Shown one piece after another: positions 7,097 through 64,000 of a stretch of 64,000 nt of DNA (position 1 is the first letter of the stretch; each line of letters opens with the position of its first letter). Both the position numbers and the translations under genes were made by a program. Origin of the DNA: Eledone cirrhosa (lineage: Eukaryota). The notes beneath the pieces were generated by a model that saw only the letters and a program-made list of their open reading frames with translations, ran no database searches and was not told where the DNA came from. The stretch is from NCBI GenBank assembly GCA_964016885.1, contig OZ024754.1:29512001-29576000 (forward strand), in the 5' to 3' direction.

Positions 7097-7097
<1 letters not shown>

Positions 7098-9125
7098 GAC
7101 CTATCACATGTCTGCCCGTAATGTGGAAACTGTTGACGAGCATTGTGTCTGAGGAAATCTACCATCACCTCCACACAAACAACTTGTTGCCGGACGAACA
7201 GAAAGGATGCCGAAAGAAGTCACGTGGTACAAAGGACCAGTTGCTTATTGATAAGATGGTAATGGGGAATTGCAGGAGGAGACACACTGATCTTGCCATG
7301 GGATGGATAGACTACAAAAAGGCATTTGACATGGTGCCTCATTCCTGGATCACCAAAAGCCTGGAGATCTTCAGGGTGGCAGATAACATCAGACAGTTGC
7401 TGGGCAGGAGTATGGGGTCCTGGGAGACAGAGTTGACATCAACTGGAGTATCCTTGGGAAGCGTGAAGATCAAGAGAGGTATCTTCCAGGGAGATAGCCT
7501 GTCCCCTCTGTTGTTTGTCCTTGCCCTGATGCCCTTGACCATTATGCTGCGAAAAGTGAGAGCAGGATACAAGTTGGGAAGGGGAGAGCTTACCATCAAT
7601 CACCTCCTCTTCATGGACGATCTTAAGCTCTTCGGGAAAAGTGAGAGGGAGTTGGATGTGCTTGTTGACACTGTCCGTATTTTCAGCAGTGATATATGTA
7701 TGCAGTTTGGTATTGGTAAATGTGGAGTCATTGTGATGAGGAGGGGTAGGTTGAGCAGAAGTAACGGGATCCAGATACCAACAGGTGAGATGATAAAGGA
7801 AATTGACTCTGAGGAAGGATACAAGTATTTGGGCGTTCTGGAGGCTGATGGCATAAAGAACAAAAAAATGAAGGAATTGTTAAGAACTGAATACATTCGG
7901 AGAGTAAGGAGCGTATTGAAGTCACATCTGAACAGCAGAAATGCCATAAGCGCAGTAAATTCCCGAACTGTGTCTATTATTAGGTACAGTGCGGGAATTC
8001 TGAGATGGAATGTTGCTGAACAAAAAGAAATGGAGAGGAAGACTAGGAAGCTATTGACTATCTACAACATGTTCCACAAGAGGAGTGATGTCGATAGACT
8101 CTACCTAAGGAGATCTGAGGGTGGAAGAGGTCTTATCAGCATAGAGGACTGTGTTCAGATGGAGAAAAACAACCTATACAAATACGTGACCTATAGTAAG
8201 GAGCCAATGCTCAGAGCTGTACTGAAGGAGGGGACAGTAGGCCAGGGGATATCCAAGGAGGAAATAACATCAAGGAGGAAGAGCAGCCTTAAGGGAAAAT
8301 CCCTTCATAGTATCTTCTTTGAGAAAACTGAATTTAGAGATCCACAGACATGGAACTGGTTGAGAAGAGGAGACCTCAAAAAGGCTACAGAAGGAATGCT
8401 AATGGCTGCGCAGGAGCAGGCCCTCAAAACGAAGTGGTTGAAGCACCATATCTACAAGGAGGAGGCTAGCCCACTGTGCAGGATCTGTGGAGAGAGAGAG
8501 GAGACTGTGGCTCACATTGTGTCCGAGTGTAAACACCTAGCCCAGACCCACTATAAGGGCTGGAGACACGATGTGATGGGCAGGGTGATCCACTGGCACC
8601 TGTGCAAAGTAAACAATCTACCACATTCTGAGAAATGGTATGAGCATAGGCCAGAGGCGGTGATGGAGAACAGTCAGGTGAAGGTGCTGTGGGATTTTAG
8701 GATACAGACGGACAAAAAACTGGAACACAATAGACCTGACCTGGTGGTTGTGGATAAAGAAAAAAGATCGTGCCTGATTGTGGATGTGGCCTGCCCGTTC
8801 GACACGAGAGTGCAAGAGAAGGAGAGGGAGAAAATTAACCGATACCAGGACCTAAAGTGGGAGGTGAAAAGGATTTGGAACTGCCATGAAGTCAAAGTGA
8901 TCCCGATTGTCATAGGCGCACTGGGGACTATCTCCAAAGGTTTCCAGGGATGGTTAAAGAAAATCGGCCCCTTCACGCTTTTTGGAACGCTTCAAAAGGC
9001 ATGCTTGCTTGGAACGGCAAGAACCCTCCGATACGTCCTGAATATCTGAGGCTGCAGGTAGTGGCTTGATATTCAATCCAACGGACTTTCCAGTTAACCA
9101 ACATCAATGACTGAGATTCAAGGAA
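7097..9125 (+). mobile_element. 5'-truncated R4/Dong non-LTR retrotransposon in (TAA)n
   Basis: Near-identical to 11664-13690; open frame to the stop at 9049 (RT, CCHC, REL); (TAA)n on both sides. Confidence 0.95.
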
Positions 9126-9154
9126 TAACAAAATAATAATAATAATAATAATAT

Positions 9155-13690: not shown

Positions 13691-13698
13691 GTAATAAC

Positions 13699-13764
<66 letters not shown>

Positions 13765-13766
<2 letters not shown>

Positions 13767-14085
13767 GAGAGTGCAAGAGAAGGAGAGGGAGAAAATTAAC
13801 CGATACCAGGACTTAAAGTGGGAGGTAAAAAGGATTTGGAACTGCCATGAAGTCAAAGTGGTCGTGATTGTCATAGGCGCAATAGGTACTATCTCAAAAA
13901 GTTTCCAGGGATGGTTAAAGAAAATTGGCCCAGCCACGCTTTTTGGAACGCTTCAAAAGGCATGCTTGCTGGGAACAGCAAGAACCCTCCGATACGTCCT
14001 GAATATTTGAGGCTGCAGGTAGTGGCTTGATATTCATTTCAACAAACTTTCCAGTTAACTAACATCAATGACTGAGACTCAAAGA
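13765..14085 (+). mobile_element. Short 3' fragment of the same Dong family
   Basis: [14 protein letters not shown]...LRYVLNI* plus 3' UTR, between TAA tracts. Confidence 0.92.
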
Positions 14086-14119
14086 ACAATAATAATAATA
14101 AGAATAAGAATAAGAAGAA

Positions 14120-14408
14120 GAATCGATACCAGGACTTAAAGTGGGAGGTAAAAAGGATTTGGAACTTCCATGAGGTCAAAGTGGTCCCAATTGTCATAGG
14201 CGCACTAGGTACTATCTCAAAGAGTTTCCAAGGATGGTTAAAGAAATTTGGTCCCACCCCGCTTTTTGGAACACTTCAAAAGGCATGCTTGCTGGGAACA
14301 GCAAGAACCCTCCAATACGTCCTGAATATCTGAGGCTGCAGGTAGTGGCTTGATATTCATTTCAACAAACTTTCCAGTTAAATAACATCAATGACTGAGA
14401 CTCAAAGA
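14120..14408 (+). mobile_element. Short 3' fragment of the same Dong family
   Basis: [15 protein letters not shown]...VLNI* plus 3' UTR, then (TAA)n. Confidence 0.9.
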
Positions 14409-14432
14409 ACAATAATAATAATAATAATAATA

Positions 14433-14750
14433 AATGTGGAAATTGAGAACTAAAACAATACCAGTGGTTGTAGGCGCTCTAGGAATGATACCTAAGGGGT
14501 CTAATGATTACTTATCGCAAATCCCAGGAAGCCCGCGTATAGGAGAAATACAAAAGATAGTACTAATGGGAACTGCCCATATACTAAGGAAGGTTCTGTC
14601 AATATAAGTACATCACAAGTCTAAACACCTAAAGATGCATGTGTGTGTATGTATGTTCTTTCTTGAACATGGCGGACCTTGTTGTCTCTTGAGGTCACTG
14701 GTTGTGACTTGGTGATAACTCGTATGAACATAAAGCAAGATAAATGCAAC
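14433..14750 (+). mobile_element. 3' fragment of a second R4/Dong family
   Basis: WKLRTKTIPVVVGALGMIPKG...IQKIVLMGTAHILRKVLSI*; different 3' UTR; TAA-flanked. Confidence 0.85.
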
Positions 14751-30561: not shown

Positions 30562-31569
30562 ATAATATAAAAAATAAAATTATACAAAATAGAAATTTTA
30601 TAAAACAGAAATATATAATATGAAAATTAAAAATATATTAAAAAATACACAAAAACACGGAATAAAATGCAAACAGCGAGACTTTAGTAACTTTCGGCCA
30701 GTATTGGCCCAGGCCATGTCTAACTTAATAGCACCAATTCTAAAATATATTTGCTAGAAAATTGTCGATGAGAACCCCAGAAAGTTAATTAGTTTCGAGG
30801 TCATCCTCTGCAAAGAATTGTGCCTGAGGACGTTCGATATAAGTTATATGTAATGTGAAGAGGCCAATTTATCTCCATATAGACAAAAGATAACTGTATT
30901 ATCCGAGTAAGACATTTCACTAAAACTCCCTAATTTCCTTTAATAGAAAGACTCACGGCCTTATAATCGTTGATTATTTCAATGTAAATGAAGAATCATT
31001 TAACCAGTGATTTTACTATATTCGATTTAATGTTTAAATAAAAGTACTTAACACCGTTTATATATTAGCGATATTAAGATAAAGTCAGCCTCAGTTCCTG
31101 TCAAATGTATAACTTAAATGGGCGGAATTAGATAATATAGGAATGAAAACAAAGCTAAGTTAGTGTGTAGATCCCATCTACATCATTGATGTTAATATTT
31201 CAATACTCATATCAACTGAGCTAATTGGCTATTCATTGAATTGATTTAAGAAATTAAGTAGCAATGATCCTCCCTTGCACAGAGAGCGAGAGAGGGAGAG
31301 AGAGAAAGAGAAAGTCACACACACACACACAGACTAATACTAAAAATATAAAATATCATTAATATGTAATACCATTCATTGTATTAAAATATTTAGTGAA
31401 AAATAGAATTTATTAAAATTAAAATTGTACATTTCTTTCTACCTGGAATATAGGTGAAACTTCAGAACGGAATTATGTAAGTATCTACTTTTCTAAAACA
31501 CTCCTCCCCTCCTCCACTCCTCCACTACAATTTCCAAGTAATTTATCTTTACTTGATGGAGACAGTTAT

Positions 31570-32066
31570 AAAATTTTGGTAAAATACAATTTTGATGAAA
31601 TACAATTTTGGTAAAATACAATTTTGATGAAATACAATTTTGGTAAAATACAATTTTGGTAAAATACAATTTTGGTAAAATAAAATTTTGGTAAAATAAA
31701 ATTTTGGTAAAATAAAATGTTGATGAAATACAATTTTGGTAAAATACAATTTTGATGAAATACAATTTTGGTAAAATAAAATTTTGGTAAAATACAATTT
31801 TGGTAAAATAAAATTTTGGTAAAATAAAATGTAGGTAAAATAAAATTTTGATAAAATGCAACTTTAGTAAAATACAACTTTGGTAAAATACAATTTTATT
31901 AAAATACAACTTCGGTAAAATGCAATTTTGGTAAAATACAACTTTGGTAAAATACAATTTTAGTAAAGTACAACTTTGATAGAATACAATTTTAGTAAAG
32001 TACAACTTTGGTAAAATACAATTTTAGTAAAACCTTTATAAAAATTGGTAAAATACAATTTCGGTA
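31570..32066. repeat. 16-bp minisatellite (TTTTGGTAAAATACAA)n
   Basis: About 30 variant units. Confidence 0.92.
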
Positions 32067-35807: not shown

Positions 35808-36342
35808 ACACTTGTGGGTACAACATACACACAATCTTCCGATACACACGTGAAATACACACACACACGTGCGCTACATGACACACTTTGTGAGTACAAC
35901 ATACACACAATCTTCCGATACACACGTGAAATACACACACACACGTGCGCTACATGACACACTTTGTGGGTACAACATACACACAATCTTCCGATACACA
36001 CGTGAAATACACACACACGTGCGCTACATGACACACTTTGTGGGTACAACATACACACAATCTTCCGATACACACGTGAAATACACACACACACGTGCGC
36101 TACATGACACACTTTGTGGGTACAACATACACACAATCTTCCGATACACACGTGAAATACACACACACACGTTCGCTACATGACACACTTTGTGGGTACA
36201 ACATACACACAATCTTCCGATACACACGTGAAATACACACACACACGTGCGCTACATGACACACTTTGTGGGTACAACATACACACAATCTTCCGATACA
36301 CACGTGAAATACACACACACACGTGCGCTACATGACACACTT
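35808..36342. repeat. 76-bp minisatellite, 7 units
   Basis: TGTGGGTACAACATACACACAATCTTCCGATACACACGTGAAATACACACACACACGTGCGCTACATGACACACTT, nearly invariant. Confidence 0.95.
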
Positions 36343-36860: not shown

Positions 36861-37623
36861 CCACACCGATACAATGTAATTACCCAGCCTCCCTAGGCCG
36901 GACTTTCACTAGAATGTTAGTCTACGACTCCATTTATACCATAAACATGGTTTTGTCTTCGCGTGTATTTGTTATCCACGGTCCACATAACGACGTATTA
37001 TCTTCGCTTTTTTCCGTTCATTGCCAGGGAACGTCTTCACGAACCAAAGTGTCGTCTTCCTTCGGTTGCAACGTTTTTCGAAATATTTACTTCTGCGTAC
37101 ACAGATTGATTTTTTATTTTCAGAAGATCCCGTTAAGGGTGGAAGCAGCGTTTCCTTGCTTAAACTTTTATTTTGATATATACTAGCAGAATGGCCTGGC
37201 GTTGCTCGGGATTTGCTTTAGGGTTCTTATATATTTGTTATATATTTATCCTTATTGAGCCTCGTGAAATAAATACGTTTGTTTATATTTTGTGTATGCA
37301 AAAATATATGTACACGAATATATAATTATATATATATATATATATATAAATTGAAACAAAATGAAAACGAAATTTCATTTCTCACTCTTAGTATGGCACT
37401 TACTACTACATATATGTATGTACGTATACATGCATACTTACATTTAAGTAAGTGCCATACTAAGAGTGAGAAATGAAATTTCGTTTTCATTTTGTTTCAA
37501 TTTATCGTTTTCGGTATGCCTGACCGATTTAACTCACTCAATATGCAAATTAGGCTGCTCAGCCGTTAATTTCCATAAGGAAAGTATATACTTTCGAACG
37601 TTCAACTATCTGGCAGATGGGTA

Positions 37624-37667
37624 AACGGTGCTGATGATAGCTAACAAGCTTGAAACTAGTACATCGT
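37624..37667 (+). ncRNA. Type I hammerhead ribozyme (family A)
   Basis: ACGGTG-CTGATGA-TAGCT-AACA-AGCTT-GAAA-CTAG-TA-CATCGT. Confidence 0.8.
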
Positions 37668-38099
37668 CCCTGTGTCAGTGTTGAACAAAAAGGTGACGTG
37701 GTTGCCTTAACACCGTATGGCATAAATTCAGGCTGTTCAGTTTGTTTACAAACGAACAAAGCGACGTTATAATAAGCGCCGCTAAACTGATACGTGCATA
37801 TATGTATGTGTACCTGTATGCATATGTATATATATATGTATATATATATATATATATATGTGCATGCTACTGTACGTCTGTATACATATATGTATGTACG
37901 TATACATGCATACTTACGTTTAAGTAAGTGCCATACTAAGAGTGAGAAATGAAATTTCGTTTTCATTTTGTTTCAATTTATCGTTTTCGGTATGCCTGAC
38001 CGATTTAACTCACTCAATATGCAAATTAGGCTGCTCAGCCGTTAATTTTCATAAGGAAAGTATATACTTTCGAACGTTCAACTATCTGGCAGATGGGTA

Positions 38100-38144
38100 A
38101 ACGGTGCTGATGATAGCTAATAAGCTTGAAACTAGTACATCGTT
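38100..38144 (+). ncRNA. Type I hammerhead ribozyme (family A)
   Basis: AACGGTG-CTGATGA-TAGCT-AATA-AGCTT-GAAA-CTAG-TA-CATCGTT. Confidence 0.8.
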
Positions 38145-38308
38145 CCTGTGTCAGTGTTGAACAAAAAGGTGACGTGGTTGCCTTAACACCGTATGGCATA
38201 AATTCAGGCTGTTCAATTTGTTTACAAACGGACAAAGCGACGTTATAATAAGCGCCGCTAAACTGATACGTGCATATATGTATGTGTACCTGTATGCATA
38301 TGTATATA

Positions 38309-38360
<52 letters not shown>

Positions 38361-38595
38361 TGCTACTGTACGTCTGTATACATATATGTATGTACGTATA
38401 CATGCATACGTACATTTAAGTAAGTGCCATACTAAGAGTGAGAAATGAAATTTCGTTTTCATTTTGTTTCAATTTATCGTTTTCGGTATGCCTGACCGAT
38501 TTAACTCACTCAATATGCAAATTAGGCTGCTCAGCCGTTAATTTTCATAAGGAAAGTATATACTTTCGAACGTTCAACTATCTCGCAGATGGGTA

Positions 38596-38640
38596 AACGG
38601 TGCTGATGATAGCTAACAAGCTTGAAACTAGTACATCGTT
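38596..38640 (+). ncRNA. Type I hammerhead ribozyme (family A)
   Basis: Same fold; CTGATGA at 38603. Confidence 0.8.
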
Positions 38641-38798
38641 CCTGTGTCAGTGTTGAACAAAAAGGTGACGTGGTTGCCTTAACACCGTATGGCATAAATT
38701 CAGGCTGTTCAGTTTGTTTACAAACGAACAAAGCGACGTTATAATAAGCGCCGCTAAACTGATACGTGCATATATGTATGTGTACCTGTATGCATATG

Positions 38799-38829
<31 letters not shown>

Positions 38830-38885
38830 GTGCATGCTACTGTACGTCTGTATACATATATGTATGTACGTATACATGCATACTT

Positions 38886-38934
<49 letters not shown>

Positions 38935-43223: not shown

Positions 43224-43285
<62 letters not shown>

Positions 43286-43637
43286 AATTAAGTTAAAAGT
43301 GTACATCCACATATGTATACGGAAATATTAGTATGCATATAAATACACACATGTATACATATGTACATGTACTGAGTTTTGCCCTGGACACTTTACTGTG
43401 AGTGTCCAGCTAGTCTGTATGTAACCAAACAGACCAACCGGATTTTAGAGTAATACAGGTTTTCAAGGAAACACATTTCCTCTATTCTCCAGAGAGCCAG
43501 ACAGGATACACTTTTAACTTAATTGTTTAAGCGTCAGTCATACAATAGTGAGTTATAAGCGAAACGAAATTTAATTTCGTTTCGTTATTTGTTTTTATCG
43601 TTTACGCTGAACCGGTGCGTACAATGACTCGCGTTCT

Positions 43638-43686
43638 ATGCAAATTAGTCTGCCCACTACTAATTTTCATAGAAAAAGCATATAAC
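43638..43686 (+). promoter_or_regulatory. Conserved octamer-containing block upstream of the hammerhead (candidate snRNA-type promoter)
   Basis: ATGCAAATTAG.CTGC.CA...TAATTTTCATA...AAAG.ATATA shared by families A (37543, 38019, 38515, 62621, 63633) and B (43638, 61162). Confidence 0.4.
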
Positions 43687-43730
43687 GATATGTGCTTTTA
43701 CGATTCTCTAGAGAAGCCGGAAGATGGGTA

Positions 43731-43775
43731 AATATTGCTGATGAGATGTAATAACATCGAAACTAGTCCAATATT
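43731..43775 (+). ncRNA. Type I hammerhead ribozyme (family B), canonical core with GUC site
   Basis: AATATTG-CTGATGA-GATGT-AATA-ACATC-GAAA-CTAG-TC-CAATATT. Confidence 0.92.
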
Positions 43776-44194
43776 CCTGTCTGGCTCTCTGGAGAATAGA
43801 GGAAATGTGTTTCCTTGAAAACCTGTATGACTCTAAAACCCGGTTGGTCTGTTTGGTTACATACAGACTAGCTGGACACTCACAGTAAAGTCTCCAGTGA
43901 AAAACTCAGTACATGTACATATGTATACATGTGTGTATTTATATGCATACTAATATTTCTGTATACATATGTGGATGTACACTTTTAACTTAATTGTTTA
44001 AGCGTCAGTCATACAAAAGTGAGTTATAAGCGAAACGAAATTTAATTTCGTTTCGTTATTTGTTTTTATATATATATATATATCCATATATATATATACA
44101 TATATATATATATATGTATAAGTAAATATATATATATGTAAATATATAAGTTAAAACAAGGAAATACAAAATCAAGTCATTAGGGATATACTTC

Positions 44195-49250: not shown

Positions 49251-49313
<63 letters not shown>

Positions 49314-49943
49314 ACAAGCAAATTATAAACGTAAACATGTAAGTATGTTTTTCAAACGGTGCGCGAGTTTGAAATTAGAAATTAGAAATTATAAGCTTCC
49401 ACCGGATTTTAGACTAAAGAAATTTTTAGCCTGATAGTGGGGTTTATAACCCTCGGAGAAATGGAACAAGATGAGTGTTGCCGTACATGTACGGCAACAC
49501 TCATCTTTTTCCATTTCTCCGAGGGATATATACATATATATGTGTATATATATGTATATATATGCATAAATCTGTATATATATATATGTATATATACACA
49601 TACATATATAAATGTATACATACACACACATATATATACCTATATATACATATATATATACATATATACATATATATACATACATACATATATACAAACG
49701 CATCCACATTTTCATATGTGTGTGTGTGTGTGTTTGTGTGTTTTAAATGTCAACTAAGAAATAAAACAATACAGGAGAACAATACAGTACAATGCTGATA
49801 TATATCAGTTTAACGCTTGCTCTAGTAGGAAAACGTTCTGAATATTTCAGACGCCGGTACTTTATTGGAAATAAGAATAAGACACAAGAGAAATAGAGGA
49901 TAGAAAAGGTTAAATATGTGGAGAAAATGAAAAGCATTATATA

Positions 49944-50645
49944 CAGGGTGCGGACGGTATTTGAGGACAGATTTATGGTTTAAAAAAAAAACGCTTATAT
50001 AATAACAGAAAAAAACTGTTATTTTTAAATAAAAATAACAGAAACATAAAACTAAATTATCGATTTGATAATTTCCTTCAATAAAACCACCATAAGCTTC
50101 AATAACTGTTCTACGAGGGGTCGAAATCGTTTACAAGCTCGGATTAAGTGATCCTTATTCATATCAGACATGACTCGAACTATGACGGCTTTCAAAGAAT
50201 CTTTGGTGTTATGGGGGTGTTCATTGACATTTGTCTCAACGATGCTCATGGTAGTCCAGTCGATTGAGATCTGGAGAATTAGGAGGCTAAATGTTGAGGG
50301 TGATGTGATCATGCAAATTGTCGCCCATCCATTCTTGTGTTATTTGAGCCTTGTGTGATGGTGCAGAATCTTGTTGAAAGACATAAGGCTTTCCATTGCA
50401 TACACTGTTGATCCAAGGCTTAACTACTTTATCCAGAACCTCAATATACGCCACAACATTCACCCTAAGGCCTTGAGGAAAAACGTGAGGAGGCCTCACA
50501 TGTCCTTCGTTGCTAACAACACCCAAAACCATGACACTTGCAGAAAATTTTGTGTGCAGTATTCTTGGAACCTCAGAAGGATCTGCACATAGCCACCTGT
50601 CGTTTCTTCTGTTAGTTTTCTGGTCCTGGTCAAAGTTTTTCTAAT
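49944..50645 (-). mobile_element. Truncated Tc1/mariner (DD37D, maT-like) transposon, frameshifted copy
   Basis: TA|CAGGGTG end; YVFQQDSAPSH..PNSPDLN. Confidence 0.85.
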
Positions 50646-51762
50646 GTGTATTTGGTCAGCCATTTGAAGTTACATATACACTTTTATGTATTTTCTCTGC
50701 AAGATAGCTACAGGGAAATCGTGTGTTGAAACCAATATTGTCACATTTGTGAATGGTTATTTTCCCAGTATTAGCAATAAAAAGAAATGCACGCACTATA
50801 TGATTTGCACTTCATCTTTATTGCTCGTTTTTCGTTCGTTCGTCAAAGTTATTTCATCACGCATTCTGTGACCTCAATGACTATCTATTCTCTTGCGTAC
50901 TTCCTCTTCTTTCTGATCGTAAAATTCTACCCCATCTTGTCTTTTGTTCTGTGCAGACTATTGATAAAATGTCTATCCACAAATAAAATAATGCATACAT
51001 ATATACTTACATACATACAGAAAGTTGTTGTGACAACAACTGGGGGCCTTTCACTCCCAGCCTAAAAAAAAAGTATTATTTGGGTGTCCGTTGACTACTG
51101 AGTTCCTCTGCCCTTTGTCGTGTCTTGTATTTCATCCTGCAGGGTGTCTAAATATTACCCTCCTCACCAAGTATATAATAAGATCCATATCTACACATAC
51201 AGACATGCATACATATCTACCTAGTTGATGTTGTGTAAATTCCAATGAGAGAGTCTTGTGTCTATGTTAGAAACCGACTCTCTCTCTATTGGGAAAAAAT
51301 TTGTGAAATTATAAAACCAGAAGAACATACATACATATATGGTGGCTGCCAACTCGTTTTCGAGTACGGCCACTACTTTATATCCATGTAGGAGAACCCC
51401 TACCGATGGGCTGAACGAGTGTGACCTTTTAGTCCAGTCAGCGACTTGAAAACTCTGGTACAAACACTACACTTGTGACAATTATTGACACATAGTGCTG
51501 GGCCCATGGTACCATGTGATGACAAGTGCAGAGAGATCTCCAGATATAAAGCAATGCCTGTGCCGTGAAGCTTTTATAGTGAGCAAAGGCACTGCACAAA
51601 GCCAGTCCCACTCTCTTAACCAAGATGATATTTACCAAAAAGAAGAACAAGTCAACATCATTGGATACCATCAGGGTTGCAGGTGTTATATCAGAGTTTT
51701 CCTTCTCCTAGAATTCTGCCTTGACAAAGGCTAAGGGGTCATCTCTCCCGGACATATATACA

Positions 51763-51796
<34 letters not shown>

Positions 51797-51817
51797 CATA
51801 CATACATATATACATAC

Positions 51818-52264
51818 ATGAAAATAAAAACTGCCACCATATTAAACTACAACGGGCCTGATATTGTTGTTTTGGACCACACATTGAAATCGTACTTTGT
51901 TGTAGAAATCAGCTGCCCACTTGATGTAAACGTTGTTATAAATATATGGGAGAAGGGCATCTACGGACCATTTATGAGGAGTTTGCAGATCCGATATACA
52001 AGATACCCCTTCATCTTCATACCCATCATTATTGGACACGGGGTCGATAAAGTACCAGTAATGTACTGGGTAATTTCTGGCCTTGTGCCAATAGTAGAAA
52101 CAATTATTGGAGCTACAGGTTATATACTAACCCGCTTGGACCAAAGTATAACTGAACTTGGATTTGTGAACAAAGAGCGCAGCTCCCTTATTCATAGACT
52201 ACAAATGGCTGTGATAGCAGGCACCTTCAAAATTTGCAAAACATTCTTTCTTTTCAAGGTATGA
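51818..52264 (+). pseudogene. REL endonuclease 3' fragment of an R2-superfamily non-LTR element, with an in-frame SINE insert
   Basis: PDIVVLD..FVVEISCPLD..IPIIIG; the paralogue 59219-59590 lacks the 75-nt insert. Confidence 0.75.
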
Positions 52265-53067
52265 CAATTTCTTTTTATTTACAACATTGCCACCAGGAAG
52301 GTGGCCGGTCAAAAATGTACTCGAAATTAAGAGAAAGAGAAACACACATATATACATGTATGTATGGTCCCGTAACTCCTAATAGAGCCGCTTGGGCGCA
52401 GTATTGACATATGGCGTTTCTTGCGCATTTTGAGCCTGGCGGAGCCCATTCCTCTCCAGGCCTGAATACAGCAGATTTCCTCCAGAAAGGGATAGAAAGT
52501 GAGAGAGAGTGGCAATGAGAAAGAGATATAGACGAAAAATCGACCCCAGTTCTAGACAGGCACTTTTTTTATTCACCTCGAGTGGAATTTGAACTCAGAG
52601 AGCAGAGAGGTGGAACGAATATTATAATGCATTCTAGCCGACGCTCTAACGATTCTGCCAATTTGCCGCCTATATACATACATACATGATGATGGCTGCG
52701 ACCTCGTTATCGAGTATGGCCATTGCACGATACAACATTATTAATAATTATCAATTAATGCTATAGTACAATGCCTGTGCCTAAAGATTTTTTTTCAAGT
52801 GAGGAAAGACTGTGCACTGAGCCAATCTCATTCTCTGAGTGACAGTAACTGTAACGCGTAAAGAAGAAAAGATCAACATCATCGGTAACTACTGAGCCGC
52901 AGGTTTTATATCGGAGTTATCCCAGTTTCCTGGGTTGCCTTCTCATAGAAAAATGCCCTGACAACTGCTAGGGGTCCTTCACTCCCAGTGATTTAACCGC
53001 GCGATCGTGTATCCAGCCTAATTATTTCTATGAACATACATACATGCATACTGTGATGCAGTATGAT

Positions 53068-53834
53068 ATAATATAATATAATATATAATATAATAGATTA
53101 TAATATATAATATAATATATAATATAATATATAATATAATATATAATATAATATATAATATAATATATAATATAATATATAATATAATATATAATATAAT
53201 ATATAATATAATATATAATATAATATATAATATAATATATAATATAATATATAATATAATATATAATATAATATATAATATAATATATAATATAATATAT
53301 AATATAATATATAATATAATATATAATATAATATATAATATAATATATAATATAATATATAATATAATATATAATATAATATATAATATAATATATAATA
53401 TAATATATAATATAATATATAATATAATATATAATATAATATATAATATAATATATAATATAATATATAATATAATATATAATATAATATATAATATAAT
53501 ATATAATATAATATATAATATAATATATAATATAATATATAATATAATATATAGTATAATATATAATATAATATATAATATAATATATAATATAATATAT
53601 AATATAATATATAATATAATATATAATATAATATATAATATAATATATAATATAATATATAATATAATATATAATATAATATATAATATAATATATAATA
53701 TAATATATAATATAATATATAATATAATATATAATATAATATATAATATAATATATAATATAATATATAATATAATATATAATATAATATATAATATAAT
53801 ATATAATATAATATATAATATAATATATAATATA
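53068..53834. repeat. 12-bp satellite (ATAATATAATAT)n
   Basis: Highly homogeneous; paralogue at 60213-60387 and 61518-61830. Confidence 0.95.
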
Positions 53835-54158
53835 ATTGTTTCTACTTTTGGCACAAGGCCAGCAATTTCCTAGTTTATTACTGGTACTTTATTTTATCGA
53901 CCCCGTAAGGATGAAAGGCAAAGTTAACCTCGGCGGGATTTGAACTCAGAATGGCAAGGGCCGTAACTCTATGCGTCAAAGCATGGCGTCCGACCCTCTA
54001 CCGATACTGCCAATTCACATAATATAATATAATATAATATATAATTGTTTCTACTTTTGGCACAAGGCCAGCAATTACCCAGTACATTACTGGTACTTTT
54101 TTTATCGATCCCGTAAGGATGAAAGGCAAAGTTAACCTCGGCGGGATTTGAACTCAGA
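53835..54158 (-). mobile_element. Two Nin/Deu-core SINE copies (53835-54018, 54044-54158)
   Basis: Match the family consensus; one counterpart at 61831-61938. Confidence 0.88.
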
Positions 54159-54163
54159 TATAA

Positions 54164-54823
54164 TCTATATATATAAAGCTGTGGTTGTCTGTCTGTCTAT
54201 CGATTTTTGGCACACATCTCCTCTTAGAATCTCTGACGGAATTGCACCGAAATTGCTATACTTGTACATTGAGCCCTAGCGAAGACATCAGAAAAAAAAA
54301 ATTTCAAATTGACCCACCCTATGTGACGAAATCGAATCTAATGTATGGATTTTTGAGCGTAAGTGACGAGTTATTTCCCTTTGTTCTGTTTACATTGAGC
54401 GTCTTACGTTCTGTTTACATTTTCTGCGTGAAAAAATTAAAAAAATTACGCTGGCTTTCTCAGCGTTTAAAATGACATTAACACAATACACGAACAGTTG
54501 TCGAGCCAGCAAAATTTTGACCTGCAAAATTCATCAGTTCGAACACTAAGCTTCCGTTTTGCTTAATTTCCATTTAAAAGCCTTTTAAAACAATATTTTT
54601 ACTTGAAAACAAGTCTATTTAAAGACTACGTAAAACAAGCAAATATTTCGTAAAAAAAAGCAAAAATTATATAAGTTTATTTAAAATATATGTATCTGTG
54701 AATTTCGTTAGGCGTGCAGACAGATAGTCTTGCAGACAGACTTTAAGCCAAAAAAGAAACTTAACATTGTAACTTTAACACAGCTACTGGGCGACCCCGA
54801 GCAACGCCGGGCTTTACTGCTAG
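54164..54823 (+). mobile_element. Non-autonomous Helitron with an empty site in the paralogue
   Basis: A|TC start, CCCGAGCAACGCCGGG hairpin, CTAG|T end; absent at ~61943. Confidence 0.88.
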
Positions 54824-55457
54824 TATAATATAATATAAAAATATAATCTTACTACAATTAAGGCTAACATTAAACTGAAACACATACTTTGGTATTCATT
54901 GTCGATAGACGAGACTGAATAAATTATTTGCTAATGTTGAATACGCCACTGGAATGAGAACAGTCTAAGACGTAAATTCATACATTCAAATCCACTGTGT
55001 AGTTAGTTACTAATTCAGTTAATTGCCATTTTTTCTACATCATCTAAAACGTCCATAAATTTTAATAATTGTAATATCCGTAAATGGCCGATAAATATCT
55101 GTGTTACTTTTGTAAAAGTAACGTAATTGTTGGTAATCAAATAAATATACTATTAGTCATCATTGAACGGAGAATGTGCTAGGGTACCATTACTGAAGTA
55201 CTGTCCCAATGGAAATTTTATCTCGTACAATGGATTTCCTGAAACACAGAAGTCCGATTTCTTACATCACAAACTTTCAATTAGCTTTAGGTCATCGCAG
55301 TTCTATGAATTTCTATTATTTGCATTGTTTTCAATATGAATAACTTTGAAAGAATTTTTAATGGGTGAATGATATAATATCTATGGGAGGAAGTTTAATA
55401 AATTCCATTGAAGATATGAAAATATATATATAATTATTAATAATTATATACACACAT

Positions 55458-55623
<166 letters not shown>

Positions 55624-56193
55624 GAAAATAAAGAAATTAATGTGAGCAAGAAGCCAACAGTATTTCATAATATATAAGTGACTATAACGTCAAGATGGAA
55701 AATATTTAACGTAAGATATGGGAAAATAATTCAAACTCAATAAAAAAAAAAGTCAAGACAGAAATTTTATCCACAGATTTTGTGAAATCCATGGAAAAAA
55801 TCAATAGTCTTAACTCAGAATATAATTGAGGTTAAATACTCATCCTTCAATTTGGAAAAACTACAAATGCTCTTTATAGTCTTAAAAAGACTATTTCACG
55901 AAACTTTTCAGTGGGGTTAGTCACGTTTGTAGTCGTTCATCAGTAGAGCTCAAACACGATAACCAAATCACTGCTAAAATATGCCAGAAAGGGAATATAT
56001 ATATATTTATATATATATATTTATATACACACACACAAATGGAAGTTTAGTAAAATCGAAGTTTCGGCTGTAGCCAAGCTAACGATATACAATTAGGAAT
56101 GCGCAGCATAGCACTACGTAAGGCTGGACCTTAAAGCAATTAACATACGTTAGATAGCGTGACAAGTTCAAAATTGCGGTAGGCAAGCCTAGC

Positions 56194-56300
<107 letters not shown>

Positions 56301-56308
56301 CGTATATA

Positions 56309-56421
<113 letters not shown>

Positions 56422-56428
56422 AATATAA

Positions 56429-56474
<46 letters not shown>

Positions 56475-57339
56475 GCCAAATCAACTTTTTCAAATACAAG
56501 TCGATGTTGAACGGTATGTCAAATCTATTTATCTATAAAACTGTCTATATTGTATTTTGTCCGAAGAAGGCATAACATATTGTTAATATGATATCCCTGA
56601 AATATATATAGTGAAATAAATATGGTTTATAAATATAGTTTCCATTTATTTAATATCGTAAATATACTCCAAATACTTGTTGAGTGCTTTTATATCAGTT
56701 ATAAATATTTACTAGTTGTAACCCAACAATTTAAATATAACTTTCCATATATATATATATATATATATATTAGAAATTAGAAATTATAAGCTTTCACCGT
56801 ATTTTAGACTAAAGAAATTTTTAGCCTGATAGTGGGGTTTATAACCCTCGGAGAAATGGAAAAAAGATGAGTGTTGCCGTACATGTACGGCAACACTCAT
56901 CTTTTTCCATTTCTCCGCGGGATATATACATATATATGTGTATATATATATGTATATATATGCATAAATCTGTATATATATATATATATATGTATATATA
57001 CACATACATATATAAATGTATACATACACACACATATATATACCTATATATATATATATATATACATATATATACATATATATATACATATATACAAACG
57101 CATCTACATTTTCATATGTGTGTGTGTGTTTGTGTGTTTTAAATGTCAACTAAGAAATAAAACAATGCAGGAGAACAATACAGTACAATGCTGATATATA
57201 TCAGTTTAACGCTTGCTCTAGTAGGAAAACGTTCTGAATATTTCAGACGCCGGTACTTTATTGGAAATAAGAATAAGACACAAGAGAAATAGAGGATAGA
57301 AAAGGTTAAGTATGTGGAGAAAATGAAAAGCATTATATA

Positions 57340-58046
57340 CAGGGTGCGGGCGGTATTTGAGGACAGGTTTATGGTTTTAAAAAAAAAACGCTTATATAAT
57401 AACAGAAAAAAACTGTTTTTTTTAATAAAAATAACAGAAACATAAAACTAAATTATCAATTTGATAATTTCCTTCAATAAAACCATCATAAGCATCAATA
57501 ACTGTTCTACGCGGGGTCGAAATCGTTTACAAGCTCGGATTAAGTGATCCTTGTTCATATCAGACATGACTCGAACTATGAGGGCTTTCAAAGAATCTTT
57601 GGTGCTATGGGAGTGTTCATTGACATTTGTCTCAACGATGCTCCATACATGGTAGTCCAGTCGATTGAGATCTGGAGAATTAGGAGGCCAAATGTTGGGG
57701 GTGATGTGATCATGCAAATTGTCGCCCATCCATTCTTGTGTTATTTGAGCCTTGTGTGATGGTGCAGAATCTTGTTGAAAGACATAAGGCCTTCCATTGC
57801 ATACACTGTTGATCCAAGGCTTAACAACTTTATCCAGAACCTCAATATACGCCACAACATTCACCCTAAGGCCTTGAGGAAAAACGTGAGGAGGCCTCAC
57901 ATGTCCTTCGTTGCTAACAACACCCAAAACCATGACACTTGCAGAAAATTTTGTGTGCATTATTCTTGGAACCTCAGAAGGATCTGCACATAGCCACCTG
58001 TCGTTTCTTCTGTTAGTTTGCTGGTCCTGGTCAAAGTTTTTCTAAT
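57340..58046 (-). mobile_element. Truncated DD37D (maT-like) transposon; ORF 57448-57960 is the transposase C-terminus
   Basis: QQD + 37 residues + D (WPPNSPDLNRLDY); TA|CAGGGTG terminus. Confidence 0.9.
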
Positions 58047-59218
58047 GTGTATTTTGTCAGCCATTTGAAGTTACATATGCACTTTTATGTATTTTCTCTG
58101 CAAGATAGCTACAGGGAAATCGTGTGTTGAAACCAATATTGTCACATTTGTGGATGGTTATTTTCCCAGTATTGGCAATAAAAAGAAATGCACGCACTAT
58201 ATGATTTGCACTTCATCTTTATTGCTCGTTTCTCGTTCGTTCGTCAAAGTTATTTCGTCACACATTCTGTGACCTCAATGACTATCTATTCTCTTGCGTA
58301 CTTCCTCTTCTTTCTGATCGTAAAATTCTACCCCATCTTGTCTTTTGTTCTGTGCAGACTATTGACAAAATGTCTATCCACAAATAAAACAATGCATACA
58401 TATATACTTACATACATACATACAGAAAGTTGTTGTGACAACAACTGGGGGCCTTTCACTCCCAGCCTAAAAAAAAAAAGTATTATTTGGGTGGCCGTTG
58501 ACTACTGAGTTCCTCTGCCCTTTGTCGTGTCTTGTATTTCATCCTGCAGGGTGTCTAAATATTACCCTCCTCACCAAGCATACAATAAGATCCATATCTA
58601 CGTATACAGACATGCATACATATCTACCTAGTTGATGTTGTGTAAATTCCAATGAGAGAGTCTGTGTCTATGTTAGAAACCGACTCTCTCTCTATTGGGA
58701 AAAAATTTGTGAAATTATAAAACCAGAAGAACATACATACATATATGGTGGCTGCCAACTCGTTTTCGAGTACGGCCACTACTTTATATCCATGTAGGAG
58801 AACCCCTACCGATGGGCTGAACGAGTGTGACTTTTAGTCCAGTCAGCGACTTGAAAACTCTGGTACAAACACTACACTTGTGACAATTATTGACACATAG
58901 TGCTGGGCCCATGGTACCATGTGATGACAAGTGCAGAGAGATCTCCAGATATAAAGCAATGCCTGTGCCGTGAAGCTTTTATAGTGAGCAAAGGCACTGC
59001 ACAAAGCCAGTCCCACTCTCTTAACCAAGATGATATTTACCAAAAAGAAGAACAAGTCAACATCATTGGATACCATCAGGGTTGCAGGTGTTATATCAGA
59101 GTTTTCCTTCTCCTAGAATTCTGCCTTGACAAAGGCTAAGGGGTCATCTCTCCCGGACATATATACAAACATACATACATACATACATACATATATACAT
59201 ACATATATATATACATAC

Positions 59219-59590
59219 ATGAAAATAAAAACTGCGACCAAAATAAACTACAACGGGCCTGATATTGTTGTTTTGGACCACACATTGAAATCGTGCTTTA
59301 TTGTAGAGATCAGCTGCCCACTTGATGTAAACGTTGTTATAAACATATGGGAGAAGGGCATCTACGGACCATTTATGAGGAGTTTGCAGATCCGATATAC
59401 AAGATACCCCTTCAGCTTCATACCCATCATTATTGGAGCTACAGGTTATATACTAACCCGCTTGGACCAAAGTATAACTGGACTTGGATTTGTGAACAAA
59501 GAGCGCAGCTCCCTTATTCATAGACTACAAATGGCTGTGATAGCTGGCACCTTCAAAATTTGCAAAACATTCTTTCTTTTCAAGGTATGA
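59219..59590 (+). pseudogene. REL endonuclease 3' fragment of an R2-superfamily non-LTR element
   Basis: YNGPDIVVLD..CFIVEISCPLD..IPIIIGATGY. Confidence 0.75.
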
Positions 59591-60788
59591 CAATTTCTTT
59601 TTATTTACAACATTGCCACCAGGAAGGTGGCCGGTCAAAAATGTACTCGAAATTAAGAGAAAGAGAAACACACATATATACATGTATGTATGGTCCCGTA
59701 ACTCCTAATAGAGCCGCTTGGGTGCCGTATTGACATATGGCATCTCTTGCGCATTTTGAGCCTGGCGGAGCCCATTCCTCTCCAGGCCTGAATACAGCAG
59801 ATTTCCTCCAGAAAGGGATAGAAAGTGAGAGAGAGTGGCAATGAGAAAGAGATATAGACGAAAAATCGACCCCAGTTCTAGACAGGCACTTTTTTTATTC
59901 ACCTCGAGTGGAATTTGAACTCAGAGAGCAGAGAGGTGGAATGAATATTATAATGCATTCTAGCCGACGCTCTAACGATTCTGCCAATTTGCCACTGTAA
60001 CCCGTAAAGAAGAAAAGATCAACAACATCGGTAACTACTGAGCCGCAGGTTTTATATCGGAGTTATCCCAGTTTCCTGGGTTGCCTTCTCATAGAAGAAT
60101 GCCCTGACAACTGCTAGGGGTCCTTCACTCCCAGTGATTTAACCGCGCGATCGTGTATCCAGCCTAATTATTTCTATGAACATACATACATGCATACTGT
60201 GATGCAGTATGATATAATATAATATAATATGATATATAATATAATAGATTATAATATATAATATATAATATAATATATAATATAATATATAATATAATAT
60301 ATAATATAATAGATTATAATATATAATATAATATATAATATAATATATAATATAATATATAATATAATATATAATATAATATATAATAACAAATAACGAA
60401 ACGAAATTAAATTTCGTTTCGTTTGTAACTCACTTTTGTATGACTGACGCTTAAACAATTAAGTTAAAAATGTACATCCACATATGTATACTGAAATACT
60501 AGTATGCATATGAATACACACACGTATACATATGTAGATGTACCAAGTCTTTCACTGGTTACTTTACTGTGAGTATCCAGCTATTCTGTATGTAAACACA
60601 CAGACAACCCGGTTTTTAGAGTCATACTGGTTTTTGAGGAAACACCTTTCCTCTATTCTCCAGAAAGCCAGACAAGGAATATTGAACTAGTTTCGTTGTT
60701 GTTACTACTGCCCTCTACTAATTTTCATAGAAAAAGCATATAACGATATGTGCTTTTACGATTCTCCAGGAAGGCCGGTAGATAGGTA

Positions 60789-60833
60789 AATATTGCTGAT
60801 GAGTTGTAACAACAACGAAACTAGTCCAATATT
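60789..60833 (+). ncRNA. Type I hammerhead ribozyme (family B), GUC site
   Basis: AATATTG-CTGATGA-GTTGT-AACA-ACAAC-GAAA-CTAG-TC-CAATATT. Confidence 0.92.
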
Positions 60834-61254
60834 CCTTGTCTGGCTTTCTGGAGAATAGAGGAAAGGTGTTTCCTCAAAAACCAGTATGACTCTAAAAACC
60901 GGTTTGTCTGTGTGTTTACATACAGAATAGCTGGATACTCACAGTAAAGTAACCAGTGAAAGACTTGGTACATCTACATATGTATACGTGTGTGTATTCA
61001 TATGCATACTAGTATTTCAGTATACATATGTGGATGTACATTTTTAACTTAATTGTTTAAGCGTCAGTCATACAAAAGTGAGTTACAAACGAAACGAAAT
61101 TTAATTTCGTTTCGTTATTTGTTTTTATCGTCTCCTTTGAACCGGTACGTACTCACACTCTATGCAAATTAGTCTGCCCACTACTAATTTTCATAGAAAA
61201 AGCATATAACGATATGTGCTTTTACGATTCTCCAGAAAGGCCGGTAGATAGGTA

Positions 61255-61299
61255 AATATTGCTGATGAGTTGTAACAACAACGAAACTAGTTCAATATT
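61255..61299 (+). ncRNA. Type I hammerhead ribozyme (family B), GUU site
   Basis: Same fold, with GAAA-CTAG-TT-CAATATT. Confidence 0.88.
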
Positions 61300-62609
61300 C
61301 CTTGTCTGGCTTTCTGGAGAATAGAGGAAAGGTGTTTCCTCAAAAACCAGTATGACTCTAAAAACCGGTTTGTCTGTGTGTTTACATACAGAATAGCTGG
61401 ATACTCACAGTAAAGTAACCAGTGAAAGACTTGGTACATCTACATATGTATACGTGTGTGTATTCATATGCATACTAGTATTTCAGTATACATATGTGGA
61501 TGTACATTTTTAACTTAATAATATATAATATAATATATAATATAATATATAATATAATATATAATATAATATATAATATAATATATAATATAATATATAA
61601 TATAATATATAATATAATATATAATATAATATATAATATAATATATAATATAATATATAATATAATATATAATATAATATATAATATAATATATAATATA
61701 ATATATAATATAATATATAATATAATATATAATATAATATATAATATAATATATAATATAATATATAATATAATATATAATATAATATATAATATAATAT
61801 ATAATATAATATATAATATAATATATAATATACTTTTGGCACAAGGCCAGCAATTTTCCAGTGTATTACTGGTACTTTATTTTATCGACCCCGTAAGGAT
61901 GAAAGGCAAAGTTAACCTCGGCGGGATTTGAACTCAGATATAATATAATATAATATAAAAATATAATCTTACTACAATTAAGGCTAACATTAAACTGAAA
62001 CACACACTTTGGTATTCATTGTCGATAGACGAGACTGAATAAATTATTTGCTAATGTTGAATACGCCATTGGAATGAGAACAGTCTAAGAAGTAAATTCA
62101 TGCATTCAAATCCACTGTGTAGTTAGTTACTAATTCAGTTAATTGCCATTTTTTCTACATCATCTAAAACGTCCATAAATTCTAATAATTGTAATATCCA
62201 TAAATGGCCGATAAACATCTGTGTTACTTTTGTAATAGTAACGTAATTGTTGGTAATCAAATAAATATACTATTAACCATCATTGAACGGAGAATGTGCT
62301 AGGGAAAATAATTCAAACTTAATAAAAAAAAAAAGTCAAGATAGAAATTTTATCCACAGATTTTGTGAAATCCATGGAAAAAATCAATAGTCTTAACTCA
62401 GAATATAATTGAGGTTAAATACTCATCCTTCAATTTGGAAAAACTACAAATGCTCTTTATAGTCTTAAAAAGACTATTTCACGAAACTTTTCAGTGGGGT
62501 TAGTCACGTTTGTAGTCGTTCATCAGTAGAGCCCAAACACGATAACCAAAATCACTGCTAAAATATGCCAGAAAGGGAATATATATATATTTATATATAT
62601 ATATATTTA

Positions 62610-62911
62610 GCTGACTCGATATGCAAATTAGGCTGCTCAGCCGTTAATTTTCATAAGGAAAGTATATACTTTCGAACGTTCAACTATCTGGCAGATGGGT
62701 AAACGGTGCTGATGATAGCTAACAAGCTTGAAACTAGTACATCGTTCCTCTGTCAGTGTTGAACAAAAAGGTGACGTGGTTGCCTTAACACCGTATGGCA
62801 TAAATTCAGGCTGTTCGCTTTGTTGACAAACAAACGAACAAAGCGGCCGGCGTTATAATAAACGTCGGCTAAACTGATGCGTGCATATATGTATGTGTAC
62901 CTGTATGCATA

Positions 62912-62960
<49 letters not shown>

Positions 62961-63407
62961 GCGTGCTACTGTACGTCTGTATACATATATGTTTGTACGT
63001 ATACATACATACTTACATTTAAGTAAGTGCCATACTAAGAGTGAGAAATGAAATTTCGTTTTCATTTTTTTCAACTTATCGTTTTCGGTATGCCTGACCG
63101 ATTTAACTTACTCAATATACAAATTAGGCTGCTCAGCCGTTAATTTTCATAAGGAAAGTATATACTTTCGAACGTTCAACTATCTGGCAGATGGGTAAAC
63201 GGTGCTGATGATAGCTAACAAGCTTGAAACTAGTACATCGTTCCTGTGTCAGTGTTGAACAAAAAGGTGACGTGGTTGCCTTAACACCGTATGGCATAAA
63301 TTCAGGCTGTTCGCTTTGTTGACAAACAAACGAACAAAGCGGCCGGCGTTATAATAAACGTCGGCTAAACTGATGCGTGCATATATGTATGTGTACCTGT
63401 ATGCATA

Positions 63408-63479
<72 letters not shown>

Positions 63480-63923
63480 TGCTACTGTACGTCTGTATAC
63501 ATATATGTATGTACGTATACATACATACTTACATTTAAGTAAGTGCCATACTAAGAGTGAGAAATGAAATTTCGTTTTCATTTTTTTCAACTTATCGTTT
63601 TCGGTATGCCTGACCGATTTAACTCACTGAATATGCAAATTAGGCTGCTCAGCCGTTAATTTTCATAAGGAAAGTATATACTTTCGAACGTTCAACTATC
63701 TGGCAGATGGGTAAACGGTGCTGATGATAGCTAACAAGCTTTAAACTAGTACATCGTTCCTGCGTCAGTGTTGAACAAAAAGGTGACGTGGTTGCCTTAA
63801 CACCGTATGGCATAAATTCAGGCTGTTCGCTTTGTTGACAAACAAACGAACAAAGCGGCCGGCGTTATAATAAACGTCGGCTAAACTGATGCGTGCATAT
63901 ATGCATGTGTACCTGTATGCATA

Positions 63924-63970
<47 letters not shown>

Positions 63971-64000
63971 GCGTGCTACTGTACGTCTGTATACATATAT
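62610..64000 (+). mobile_element. Retrozyme-like tandem array, family A (at least 3 units, periods 496 and 516 bp; runs off the window)
   Basis: CTGATGA cores at 62709, 63205 and 63721; the third has GAAA changed to TAAA. Confidence 0.85.

What the first reader, a model, noticed from the sequence alone, without database searches (positions are those of the whole stretch)
60388..61518. Evidence that the hammerhead repeat is mobile: present in one duplicate only
Seen: the 12-bp satellite is uninterrupted in copy 1 (53068-53834) but split by family B in copy 2. The family A array at 62610 likewise has no counterpart at ~56020, although the duplication may simply end there. All four loci sit in TA-rich simple repeats. 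Inference: recent insertion with an AT-microsatellite preference.
Basis: partly seen in the sequence, partly recalled or inferred. Interest (0 to 1): 0.7.

Follow-up and report, generated by a model that had tools for sequence, protein, structure and literature searches.

The report
Ribozyme repeat caught after jumping
A 1.1-kb protein-free repeat carrying a hammerhead-ribozyme motif sits in one copy of a local duplication and is absent from the other, and its head-to-head arms with fixed ends in AT microsatellites show that it likely jumped there recently using Penelope-type retrotransposon enzymes, a known kind of element here caught with its empty site.

Summary
Observation confirmed. The 12-bp satellite is intact in copy 1 and split in phase by a 1,130-bp family-B insert in copy 2. 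The insert differs from its family at 4 of 1,091 bases, where about 10 are expected if it predated the duplication (p 0.01-0.04). Insertion is therefore favoured over deletion from copy 1.

Family B is dispersed genome-wide. In 37 insertions, 57 of 67 3' ends abut (TA)n (background 7.4%). Two-armed insertions have one long and one short fixed end in 27 of 28 cases. This is the published Penelope-like element (PLE) signature: an inverted 5'-truncated arm and a 'tail' on one end only. B is best read as a non-autonomous PLE, or non-LTR retrozyme. A young Neptune/Nematis-type PLE with the same target exists in the genome, and one B-PLE chimera was found, but the partner is unproven.

Family A at 62605 is not a clean empty/filled pair. 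Its age matches the duplication, and copy 2 starts exactly at another PLE-type family's start site, so PLE enzymes may have made the duplication itself (about 30%). The scan reported the same two-arm architecture earlier in another genome. Cleavage and expression are untested.

The parts
49374..56020 (.). Duplicate copy 1 (empty site)
53071..53836 (.). Uninterrupted 12-bp satellite (ATATAATATAAT)x64 beside a SINE-like repeat
56769..62604 (.). Duplicate copy 2; starts exactly at the modal short end of family C; lacks 52668-52847 and 55185-55722 of copy 1
60212..60388 (.). Left half of the split satellite
60388..60709 (-). Family B inverted arm, unit positions 95 to about 416-421, long 3' end facing left; hammerhead truncated
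60388..60457 (-). 'Tail' (unit 347-421), present on this outer end only; contains a perfect 13-bp hairpin
60708..61173 (+). Family B full 466-bp unit; longest stop-free frame in 60708-61519 is 60 codons
60789..60833 (+). Type I minimal hammerhead motif (stem I 7 bp, CUGAUGA, stem II 5 bp, GAAAC-UA-GU-C); predicted cut after 60826
61174..61519 (+). Second unit, ending at the short 3' end (unit 346)
61255..61299 (+). Second hammerhead motif (GUU triplet, the family majority)
61518..61832 (.). Right half of the split satellite
62605..64000 (+). Family A array (about 500-bp units, hammerhead motifs), 5'-truncated, joined to copy 2 at ATTTA; ends 27 bases past the window in (TA)n
49306..49533 (.). 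Family C two-armed element, long left end; its homologue in copy 2 (56769-56929) begins at the short end
43281..44069 (.). Older family-B insertion (about 90% identical), short left end and long right end, in (TA)n
37346..38888 (.). Family A insertion: short inverted arm plus three units, in (TA)n

Best explanation
Family B is a protein-free, 466-bp tandem-unit repeat with a type I hammerhead motif that likely inserted into the AT satellite of copy 2 after the duplication, by target-primed reverse transcription with borrowed Penelope-like (PLE) enzymes. Shown: empty versus filled paralogues, in-phase satellite, two head-to-head arms whose 3' ends face outward at two fixed sites 70-75 nt apart, AT-microsatellite flanks, and fewer mutations than the flanks. 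Inferred: a GIY-YIG endonuclease nicks both strands of the AT repeat. Each 3'-OH primes cDNA on a multimeric or circular B RNA, one at the long and one at the short internal start site, with 1-2 nt of microhomology. The two cDNAs are then joined at a variable central point. The two arms usually come from the same source lineage. Untested: ribozyme cleavage, circRNA, transcription, and which autonomous PLE supplies the enzyme.
For: Empty site intact and in phase. Insert 4/1,091 differences (3 private) against about 10 expected from the 0.92% per-lineage rate; rate symmetric, 9 vs 8 polarised changes; conditional p 0.037 and 0.014. Dispersed copies on many contigs, full-length matches 97-100%. 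63 of 67 3' ends at two sites (34 at 419-421, 29 at 346-352); 57 of 67 abut TA vs 7.4% background. Long+short in 27 of 28 classed two-armed insertions, p about 1e-7 vs 0.5. Ends fetched afterwards fitted the rule in 4 of 5 B and 3 of 3 A cases. Arms share subfamily alleles: 36 observed vs shuffled mean 4.3, max 13; 24 vs max 12 without the most divergent locus. A second empty-site case: B inside family A's internal (TA)n, with A in register on both sides (L016). A PLE ORF family with stop-free frames of 822-828 aa, RT and C-terminal GIY-YIG motifs, and 9 ends at one fixed site followed by TA. One B-PLE chimera, L022. Same architecture described for PLEs (PMC8557442, PMC3846280, PMC11167929; passages).
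Against: Dating rests on 4 changes and assumes equal rates; loci were chosen by likeness to the window copy. Copy 2's satellite is 23 units shorter, so satellite recombination has happened here. No target-site duplication can be read (only 0-1 bp modulo 12). The window's own two ends fail the strict (TA)n test because the target is a 12-bp AT satellite. One insertion is short+short (C1d), 4 are atypical, 5 are single-armed, and 2 of the 28 were called by hand. B shares no detectable homology with either PLE family examined. The Neptune-type loci seen did not show the long/short two-arm pattern. Pfam hits are below the curated cut-offs. Rfam gave no hammerhead hit at gathering threshold, and monomer folds are not better than shuffles (z -0.8 to -1.5).
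Confidence: 0.85

Rival explanations
1. B was present before the duplication and was deleted from copy 1 by recombination between the flanking satellite halves.
For: An in-phase rejoin would leave no scar; the satellite lengths differ (766 vs about 492 bp), so the array is unstable.
Against: The insert has 4 differences where about 10 are expected (p 0.01-0.04). The two large indels that look like losses are missing from copy 2, not copy 1 (one polarised by outside copies). Even if true, B would still be a mobile PLE-type element.
Confidence: 0.07
2. The two 'duplicates' are two alleles falsely assembled in tandem, so B is a presence/absence polymorphism (still an insertion).
For: 1.8% divergence with several indels; in run X1 the two versions have similar depth (5.6 and 4.8) and no single-copy control was laid.
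Against: No N gap in the window. A 750-bp spacer is not duplicated. The same family-C insertion has different left ends in the two copies, and they share a private allele at 49426.
Confidence: 0.1
3. B spreads as DNA (satellite amplification, gene conversion, or Helitron/rolling-circle DNA transfer) and the hammerhead is incidental.
For: Some loci are long arrays with higher-order periods (about 20 units at C1:375.63 Mb), as unequal crossover would make.
Against: Fixed outward 3' ends, variable 5' ends, one-sided tail and TA adjacency match PLE retrotransposition. One arm ends at the predicted ribozyme cut (L011). Stem I is kept in 26 of 30 distinct hammerhead variants.
Confidence: 0.05

Closest known systems
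Metazoan non-LTR retrozymes (Cervera and de la Pena 2020, PMC7229834; Li, Clavereau and Pollet 2026, bioRxiv 10.64898/2026.07.22.740005)
   Same: Non-coding tandem units with a type I hammerhead and short palindromic helix III, low GC, dispersed copies; proposed to be non-autonomous PLE derivatives.
   Different: The parts I read argue from distribution, pLTR homology and RNA data. 'inverted', 'microsatellite' and 'target site' do not occur in the main text of PMC7229834, and the preprint parts read give no junction analysis. Here the evidence is junction anatomy plus an empty site. circRNA was not tested, and no pLTR parent was found.
EN+ Penelope-like elements (Neptune, Nematis, Naiad, Hydra, Poseidon; PMC8557442, PMC3846280, PMC11167929)
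   Same: Partial tandems, inverted 5'-truncated copy, tail at one end only, (TA)n target, unreadable TSD, two internal RT start sites.
   Different: No ORF; tail 70-75 nt (A about 58, C about 66) rather than 30-40; near-strict one-long/one-short pairing; helix III with ACUAGU, unlike the minimal motif of the Neptune-type PLE in this genome.
Non-autonomous Chlamys PLEs (MRC1, Chlamys-N4; PMC8557442, PMC9977147)
   Same: Non-autonomous, multicopy head-to-tail insertions into microsatellites, moved by an autonomous partner.
   Different: Green-algal, (C)n/(CA)n targets, partner identified by 3' homology; most Chlamys lack hammerheads.
pLTR-mediated capture of host DNA in Adineta vaga (PMC3846280)
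   Same: Host DNA moved in trans between PLE termini; a possible model for copy 2 as a whole.
   Different: There the ends are of one family, with an 8-bp TSD and an allelic empty site; here the ends would be of two families (C and A) and the copy lies 750 bp from its source.

Membership tests
Non-LTR retrozyme | Type I hammerhead in each tandem unit, at least two consecutive | tested here: met
   60796 and 61262, 466 bp apart; stem I kept in 26 of 30 distinct variants; no Rfam hit
Non-LTR retrozyme | Short non-coding tandem unit | tested here: met
   466 bp; longest stop-free frame 60 codons; within the 51-972 bp range of the 2026 preprint
Non-LTR retrozyme | Dispersed multi-copy family | tested here: met
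   464 and 815 candidates, 39 and 40 scored; 37 distinct insertions examined
Non-LTR retrozyme | Self-cleavage as a dimer; monomeric linear or circular RNA in vivo | not testable with these tools
   Needs in vitro transcription and RNA data
Non-autonomous PLE | Inverted 5'-truncated copy beside partial tandem | tested here: met
   32 of 37 insertions are two-armed or chimeric
Non-autonomous PLE | Tail on one end only (two fixed 3' ends) | tested here: met
   27 of 28 long+short; tail 70-75 nt, longer than the published 30-40
Non-autonomous PLE | AT-microsatellite target | tested here: met
   57 of 67 vs 7.4%; target shown to pre-exist by copy 1 and by L016
Non-autonomous PLE | Sequence homology to the pLTR of an autonomous PLE | tested here: inconclusive
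   None with the two PLE families examined; other PLE families in the genome were not searched
Non-autonomous PLE | Target-site duplication | tested here: inconclusive
   0-1 bp modulo the 12-bp unit
Neptune/Nematis PLE (candidate partner) | RT plus C-terminal GIY-YIG with upstream CX2-5CxxC | tested here: met
   L076/L077 translations; Pfam RVT_1 E 4e-4 and GIY-YIG E 0.035, both below cut-off; motif definition from PMC8557442; no tree built
Plant-type LTR retrozyme | Type III hammerhead in LTRs, PBS/PPT, 4-bp TSD | tested here: not met
   Type I motif, no LTR pair

The most novel reading that the evidence does not exclude
The whole of copy 2 (56769-64027) is one PLE-made insertion. One target strand primed at family C's short start site on a read-through RNA of the neighbouring locus and copied 5.8 kb of host DNA. 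The other primed on a family A multimer, and the two cDNAs joined at ATTTA. Protein-free ribozyme repeats would then make local segmental duplications, and B later jumped into the new copy. For: copy 2 begins exactly at C's modal short end, while copy 1 has the long end. A's divergence, 10/1,127 = 0.89%, equals the 0.92% duplication age. Nothing at the boundaries needs a second deletion. A mixed-template insertion exists (L022). Against: 6 of A's 10 changes cluster in unit positions 6-19; A vs B age differs only at p 0.10; both ends are 'short'; adjacency suits a DNA-level duplication; gene conversion or recombination with another family C copy could give the same border.
Probability: 0.3. Interest if true: 0.7.

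Novelty: new member of a known kind. Interest (0 to 1): 0.5.

Why it matters
Animal retrozymes are assumed to move with PLE enzymes, on evidence from co-distribution and pLTR similarity. This locus gives a junction-level case. A distinctive 12-bp satellite shows that the AT flank is pre-existing target rather than a tail added by the element. The one-long/one-short end rule names two exact RT start sites that can be tested with a purified PLE protein, tying retrozyme mobility to the two-start-site mechanism shown in vitro for the anole PLE. If the duplication itself was PLE-made, these repeats would also drive structural variation.

Tried and rejected
Rfam at gathering threshold: 0 hits in the window. 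Monomer folding does not beat shuffles. Third copy of the duplicated segment as an outgroup: the unique part (61960-62304) occurs only in copies 1 and 2 among 40 scored candidates. Splicing as the cause of copy 2's deletions: no GT-AG on either strand by inspection; microhomology 0 and 3 bp. Unequal crossover with the family C copy just downstream (L031:385) was considered: the border fits, but the sequences left of the two C copies do not match without an extra inversion and deletion. Copy number: 0 B hits in 40 evenly spaced 10-kb stretches (399,800 bases), so no estimate beyond the search candidates; summed contig depth is not a copy number. Sequencing runs: no RNA holder listed. The junction was skipped as repeat, so polymorphism could not be tested. 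X6, X4 and X8 gave no cover of the flank. X4 and X5 each hold one 495-496-base contig that wraps round the unit at low depth; this could be tandem DNA, a circle or trace carry-over, and was not interpreted. A general empty-site search over 37 insertions gave one clear case (L016) among 7 with any collinear hit. A second, decayed PLE family showed no homology to A, B or C.

Full report
Setting. The window is G000:C14:29512001-29576000 of a 3.0-Gb, 1,796-contig animal assembly. That it looks cephalopod is my recollection of its SINE and microsatellite content and was not tested. All coordinates are window coordinates unless a locus is named.

Observation. Self-alignment shows a direct duplication, 49374-56020 and 56769-62604, with 76 substitutions in 4,198 aligned bases. 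The 12-bp satellite is continuous in copy 1 (53071-53836) and split in copy 2 (60212-60388, 61518-61832). Written as 7- and 5-mers, the left half ends on a 7-mer and the right half starts on a 5-mer, so removing 60388-61517 restores the phase. A target duplication or deletion can only be 0-1 bp modulo 12. No (TA)n was added at either junction. At the left end the satellite letter replaces one family letter (ATAATAAC vs ATAAAAAC), as expected if target DNA primed with short microhomology (inference). Copy 1 holds no A or B sequence.

Anatomy. B is a 466-bp unit. The insert is an inverted arm (unit 421 to 95) joined head-to-head to a direct arm (1-466, then 1-346). Each full unit has a type I hammerhead motif: stem I AAUAUUG/CAAUAUU, CUGAUGA, 5-bp stem II, GAAAC-UA-GU-H. 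The core pattern occurs 8 times in the window and never in 100 shuffles. Across held loci, 26 of 30 distinct variants keep at least 6 of 7 stem I pairs, and stem sequences differ between A, B and older B while still pairing. Against this, Rfam gave nothing and monomer folds are no better than shuffles. PMC4209133 (passages) describes such short palindromic helix III motifs as working as dimers with low in vitro activity. Cleavage is untested.

Direction of the event. After dropping gap-adjacent and low-complexity columns the flanks differ at 64 of 3,474 sites. Of the 18 sites with outside copies, 9 are derived in copy 1, 8 in copy 2 and 1 is unresolved, giving 0.92% per lineage. The insert differs from the majority of 37 B insertions at 4 of 1,091 bases, 3 of them private, against 10.0 expected if it were as old as the duplication (Poisson p 0.028 and 0.010; conditional binomial 0.037 and 0.014). 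One private letter (60608) is also nearly absent from run X1, which may be the source sample and is not independent. The test is modest, assumes equal rates, and uses loci ranked by likeness to the window copy. No third copy of the segment was found. A second empty-site case is L016, where B lies in family A's internal (TA)n with A in register on both sides.

Family-wide pattern. I examined 37 distinct insertions: 25, 11 and 1. The older copy at 43281 was not counted. The script found 67 outward 3' ends: 34 at unit 419-421, 29 at 346-352 and 4 elsewhere. Of these, 57 are followed by alternating TA, against 7.4% of positions in 400 kb of evenly spaced genome. The window's own two ends are among the 10 that fail, since its target is the 12-bp satellite. 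Of 28 two-armed insertions with both ends classed (L012 and C1c by hand), 27 have one long and one short end, 1 has two short ends and none has two long (p 1e-7 vs 0.5). Left out were 4 atypical and 5 single-armed insertions. One search's query favoured loci reaching 421, which cannot explain the lack of long+long pairs. Ends fetched after the rule was formed fitted in 4 of 5 B and 3 of 3 A cases; a fourth A stretch did not reach the end. One A insertion is long+long (L047). Central junctions vary. The two arms share non-majority alleles 36 times in 29 insertions vs a shuffled mean of 4.3 and maximum of 13, or 24 vs a maximum of 12 without the most divergent locus. So both arms usually copy the same source lineage, although C1c and C1e mostly do not. 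Families A (ends 437/495) and C (49374/49308) show the same design.

Mechanism and partner. PMC8557442 (passages) describes PLE insertions as partial tandems with an inverted 5'-truncated copy, a 30-40-bp tail often on one end only, (TA)n targets and unreadable TSDs. PMC3846280 (passages) says the same and reports host DNA captured between pLTRs. PMC11167929 (passages) shows that a purified PLE cuts and extends both strands at AT-rich DNA and starts reverse transcription at two internal sites that define the tail; it saw no strand difference in start site. The bioRxiv preprint 10.64898/2026.07.22.740005 (parts 1-3 of 5 read, through the discussion) argues that retrozymes are non-autonomous PLEs and leaves the mechanism open. 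PMC7229834 (passages) defines the class; PMC9977147 and PMC6962438 were seen as passages only. In this genome, locus L022 joins a B long arm and B sense piece to a PLE RT fragment and that PLE's own 3' end in (TA)n, with no B remnant beyond. That family is young and abundant: 12,173 candidates, 120 scored, top matches 95-98%. [quoted passage not shown] It is a candidate partner only: it shares no homology with B, and its loci did not show two-ended arms.

Family A and the duplication. The A array runs from 62605 to 27 bases past the window, and copy 1's 56030-56660 does not resume after it. A is therefore not a clean empty/filled pair. Two facts suggest more. Copy 2 begins exactly at family C's modal short end (8 of 14 inner ends among 19 loci), whereas copy 1 has the long end; both share the same inversion junction and a private allele at 49426. 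And the A array differs from its family at 10 of 1,127 bases, equal to the duplication's age, though 6 of these cluster near the unit start and A vs B differs only at p 0.10. Copy 2 may thus be one PLE-made insertion with a C-primed arm carrying host DNA and an A-primed arm (about 30%). DNA-level duplication with conversion or deletion at the C border is at least as likely. A false tandem of two alleles is not excluded, but would still make B an insertion.

Earlier findings. After this analysis, the scan's index returned one note from another genome (e1-8807173) with the same two-arm, two-fixed-end reading; a search by sequence returned nothing. It is an unchecked AI note and is not counted as support.

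Verdict. It works like a non-autonomous PLE and meets the sequence-testable criteria for a non-LTR retrozyme. It is a new member of a known kind, with an unusually clean empty site and a testable end rule. Interest 0.5.

Noticed in passing
L011:1267-1455 (G000:C4:325.77 Mb): A family B arm ends at unit 118, at the predicted hammerhead cut, followed by (TA)n and a short inverted echo of the same end; 1 of 67 ends. It may be priming on a self-cleaved RNA.
   Followed up: partly
G000:C8:31392976-31408767 (L211-L228): The pLTR of the Neptune-type PLE itself forms a tandem array of about 416-bp units with its hammerhead-like motif: a retrozyme-like array with an obvious PLE parent.
   Followed up: partly
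window 54160-54822: Insertion in copy 1 only, with short GTCT repeats near its start and a hairpin plus CTAG at its end; looks like a non-autonomous Helitron (recalled features, not tested).
   Followed up: no
window 7097-14433: Non-LTR retrotransposon-like region with tandemly repeated 3' ends beside (TAA)n; a hand-read frame resembles a restriction-like endonuclease domain of R4/Dong type (recalled, not tested).
   Followed up: no
window 61158-61192 and family A unit start: Families A and B share an imperfect palindrome TATGCAAATTA...TAATTTTCATA (contains the octamer ATGCAAAT, recalled) about 90 nt upstream of the hammerhead, and both have hairpins just upstream of each fixed end; candidate promoter or RT-binding signals.
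   Followed up: no
L031:1470-1730 and L230-L240: A second, decayed PLE family (RT plus C-terminal GIY-YIG-like fragments) flanked by inverted arms; 1,366 candidates, 80-87% identical.
   Followed up: partly
window 55580-56023, 56472-56748 and many self-inverted hits: Several more head-to-head or tandem repeat families end in (TA)n; much of this window may be PLE-type non-autonomous elements piled into the same TA tracts.
   Followed up: partly
window 52037-52103: SINE fragment in copy 1 only, flanked by a repeated ATTATTGGA (TSD-like).
   Followed up: no
window 35808-36342 and 31568-32032: 76-bp x7 (98% matches) and 16-bp x29 tandem arrays.
   Followed up: no
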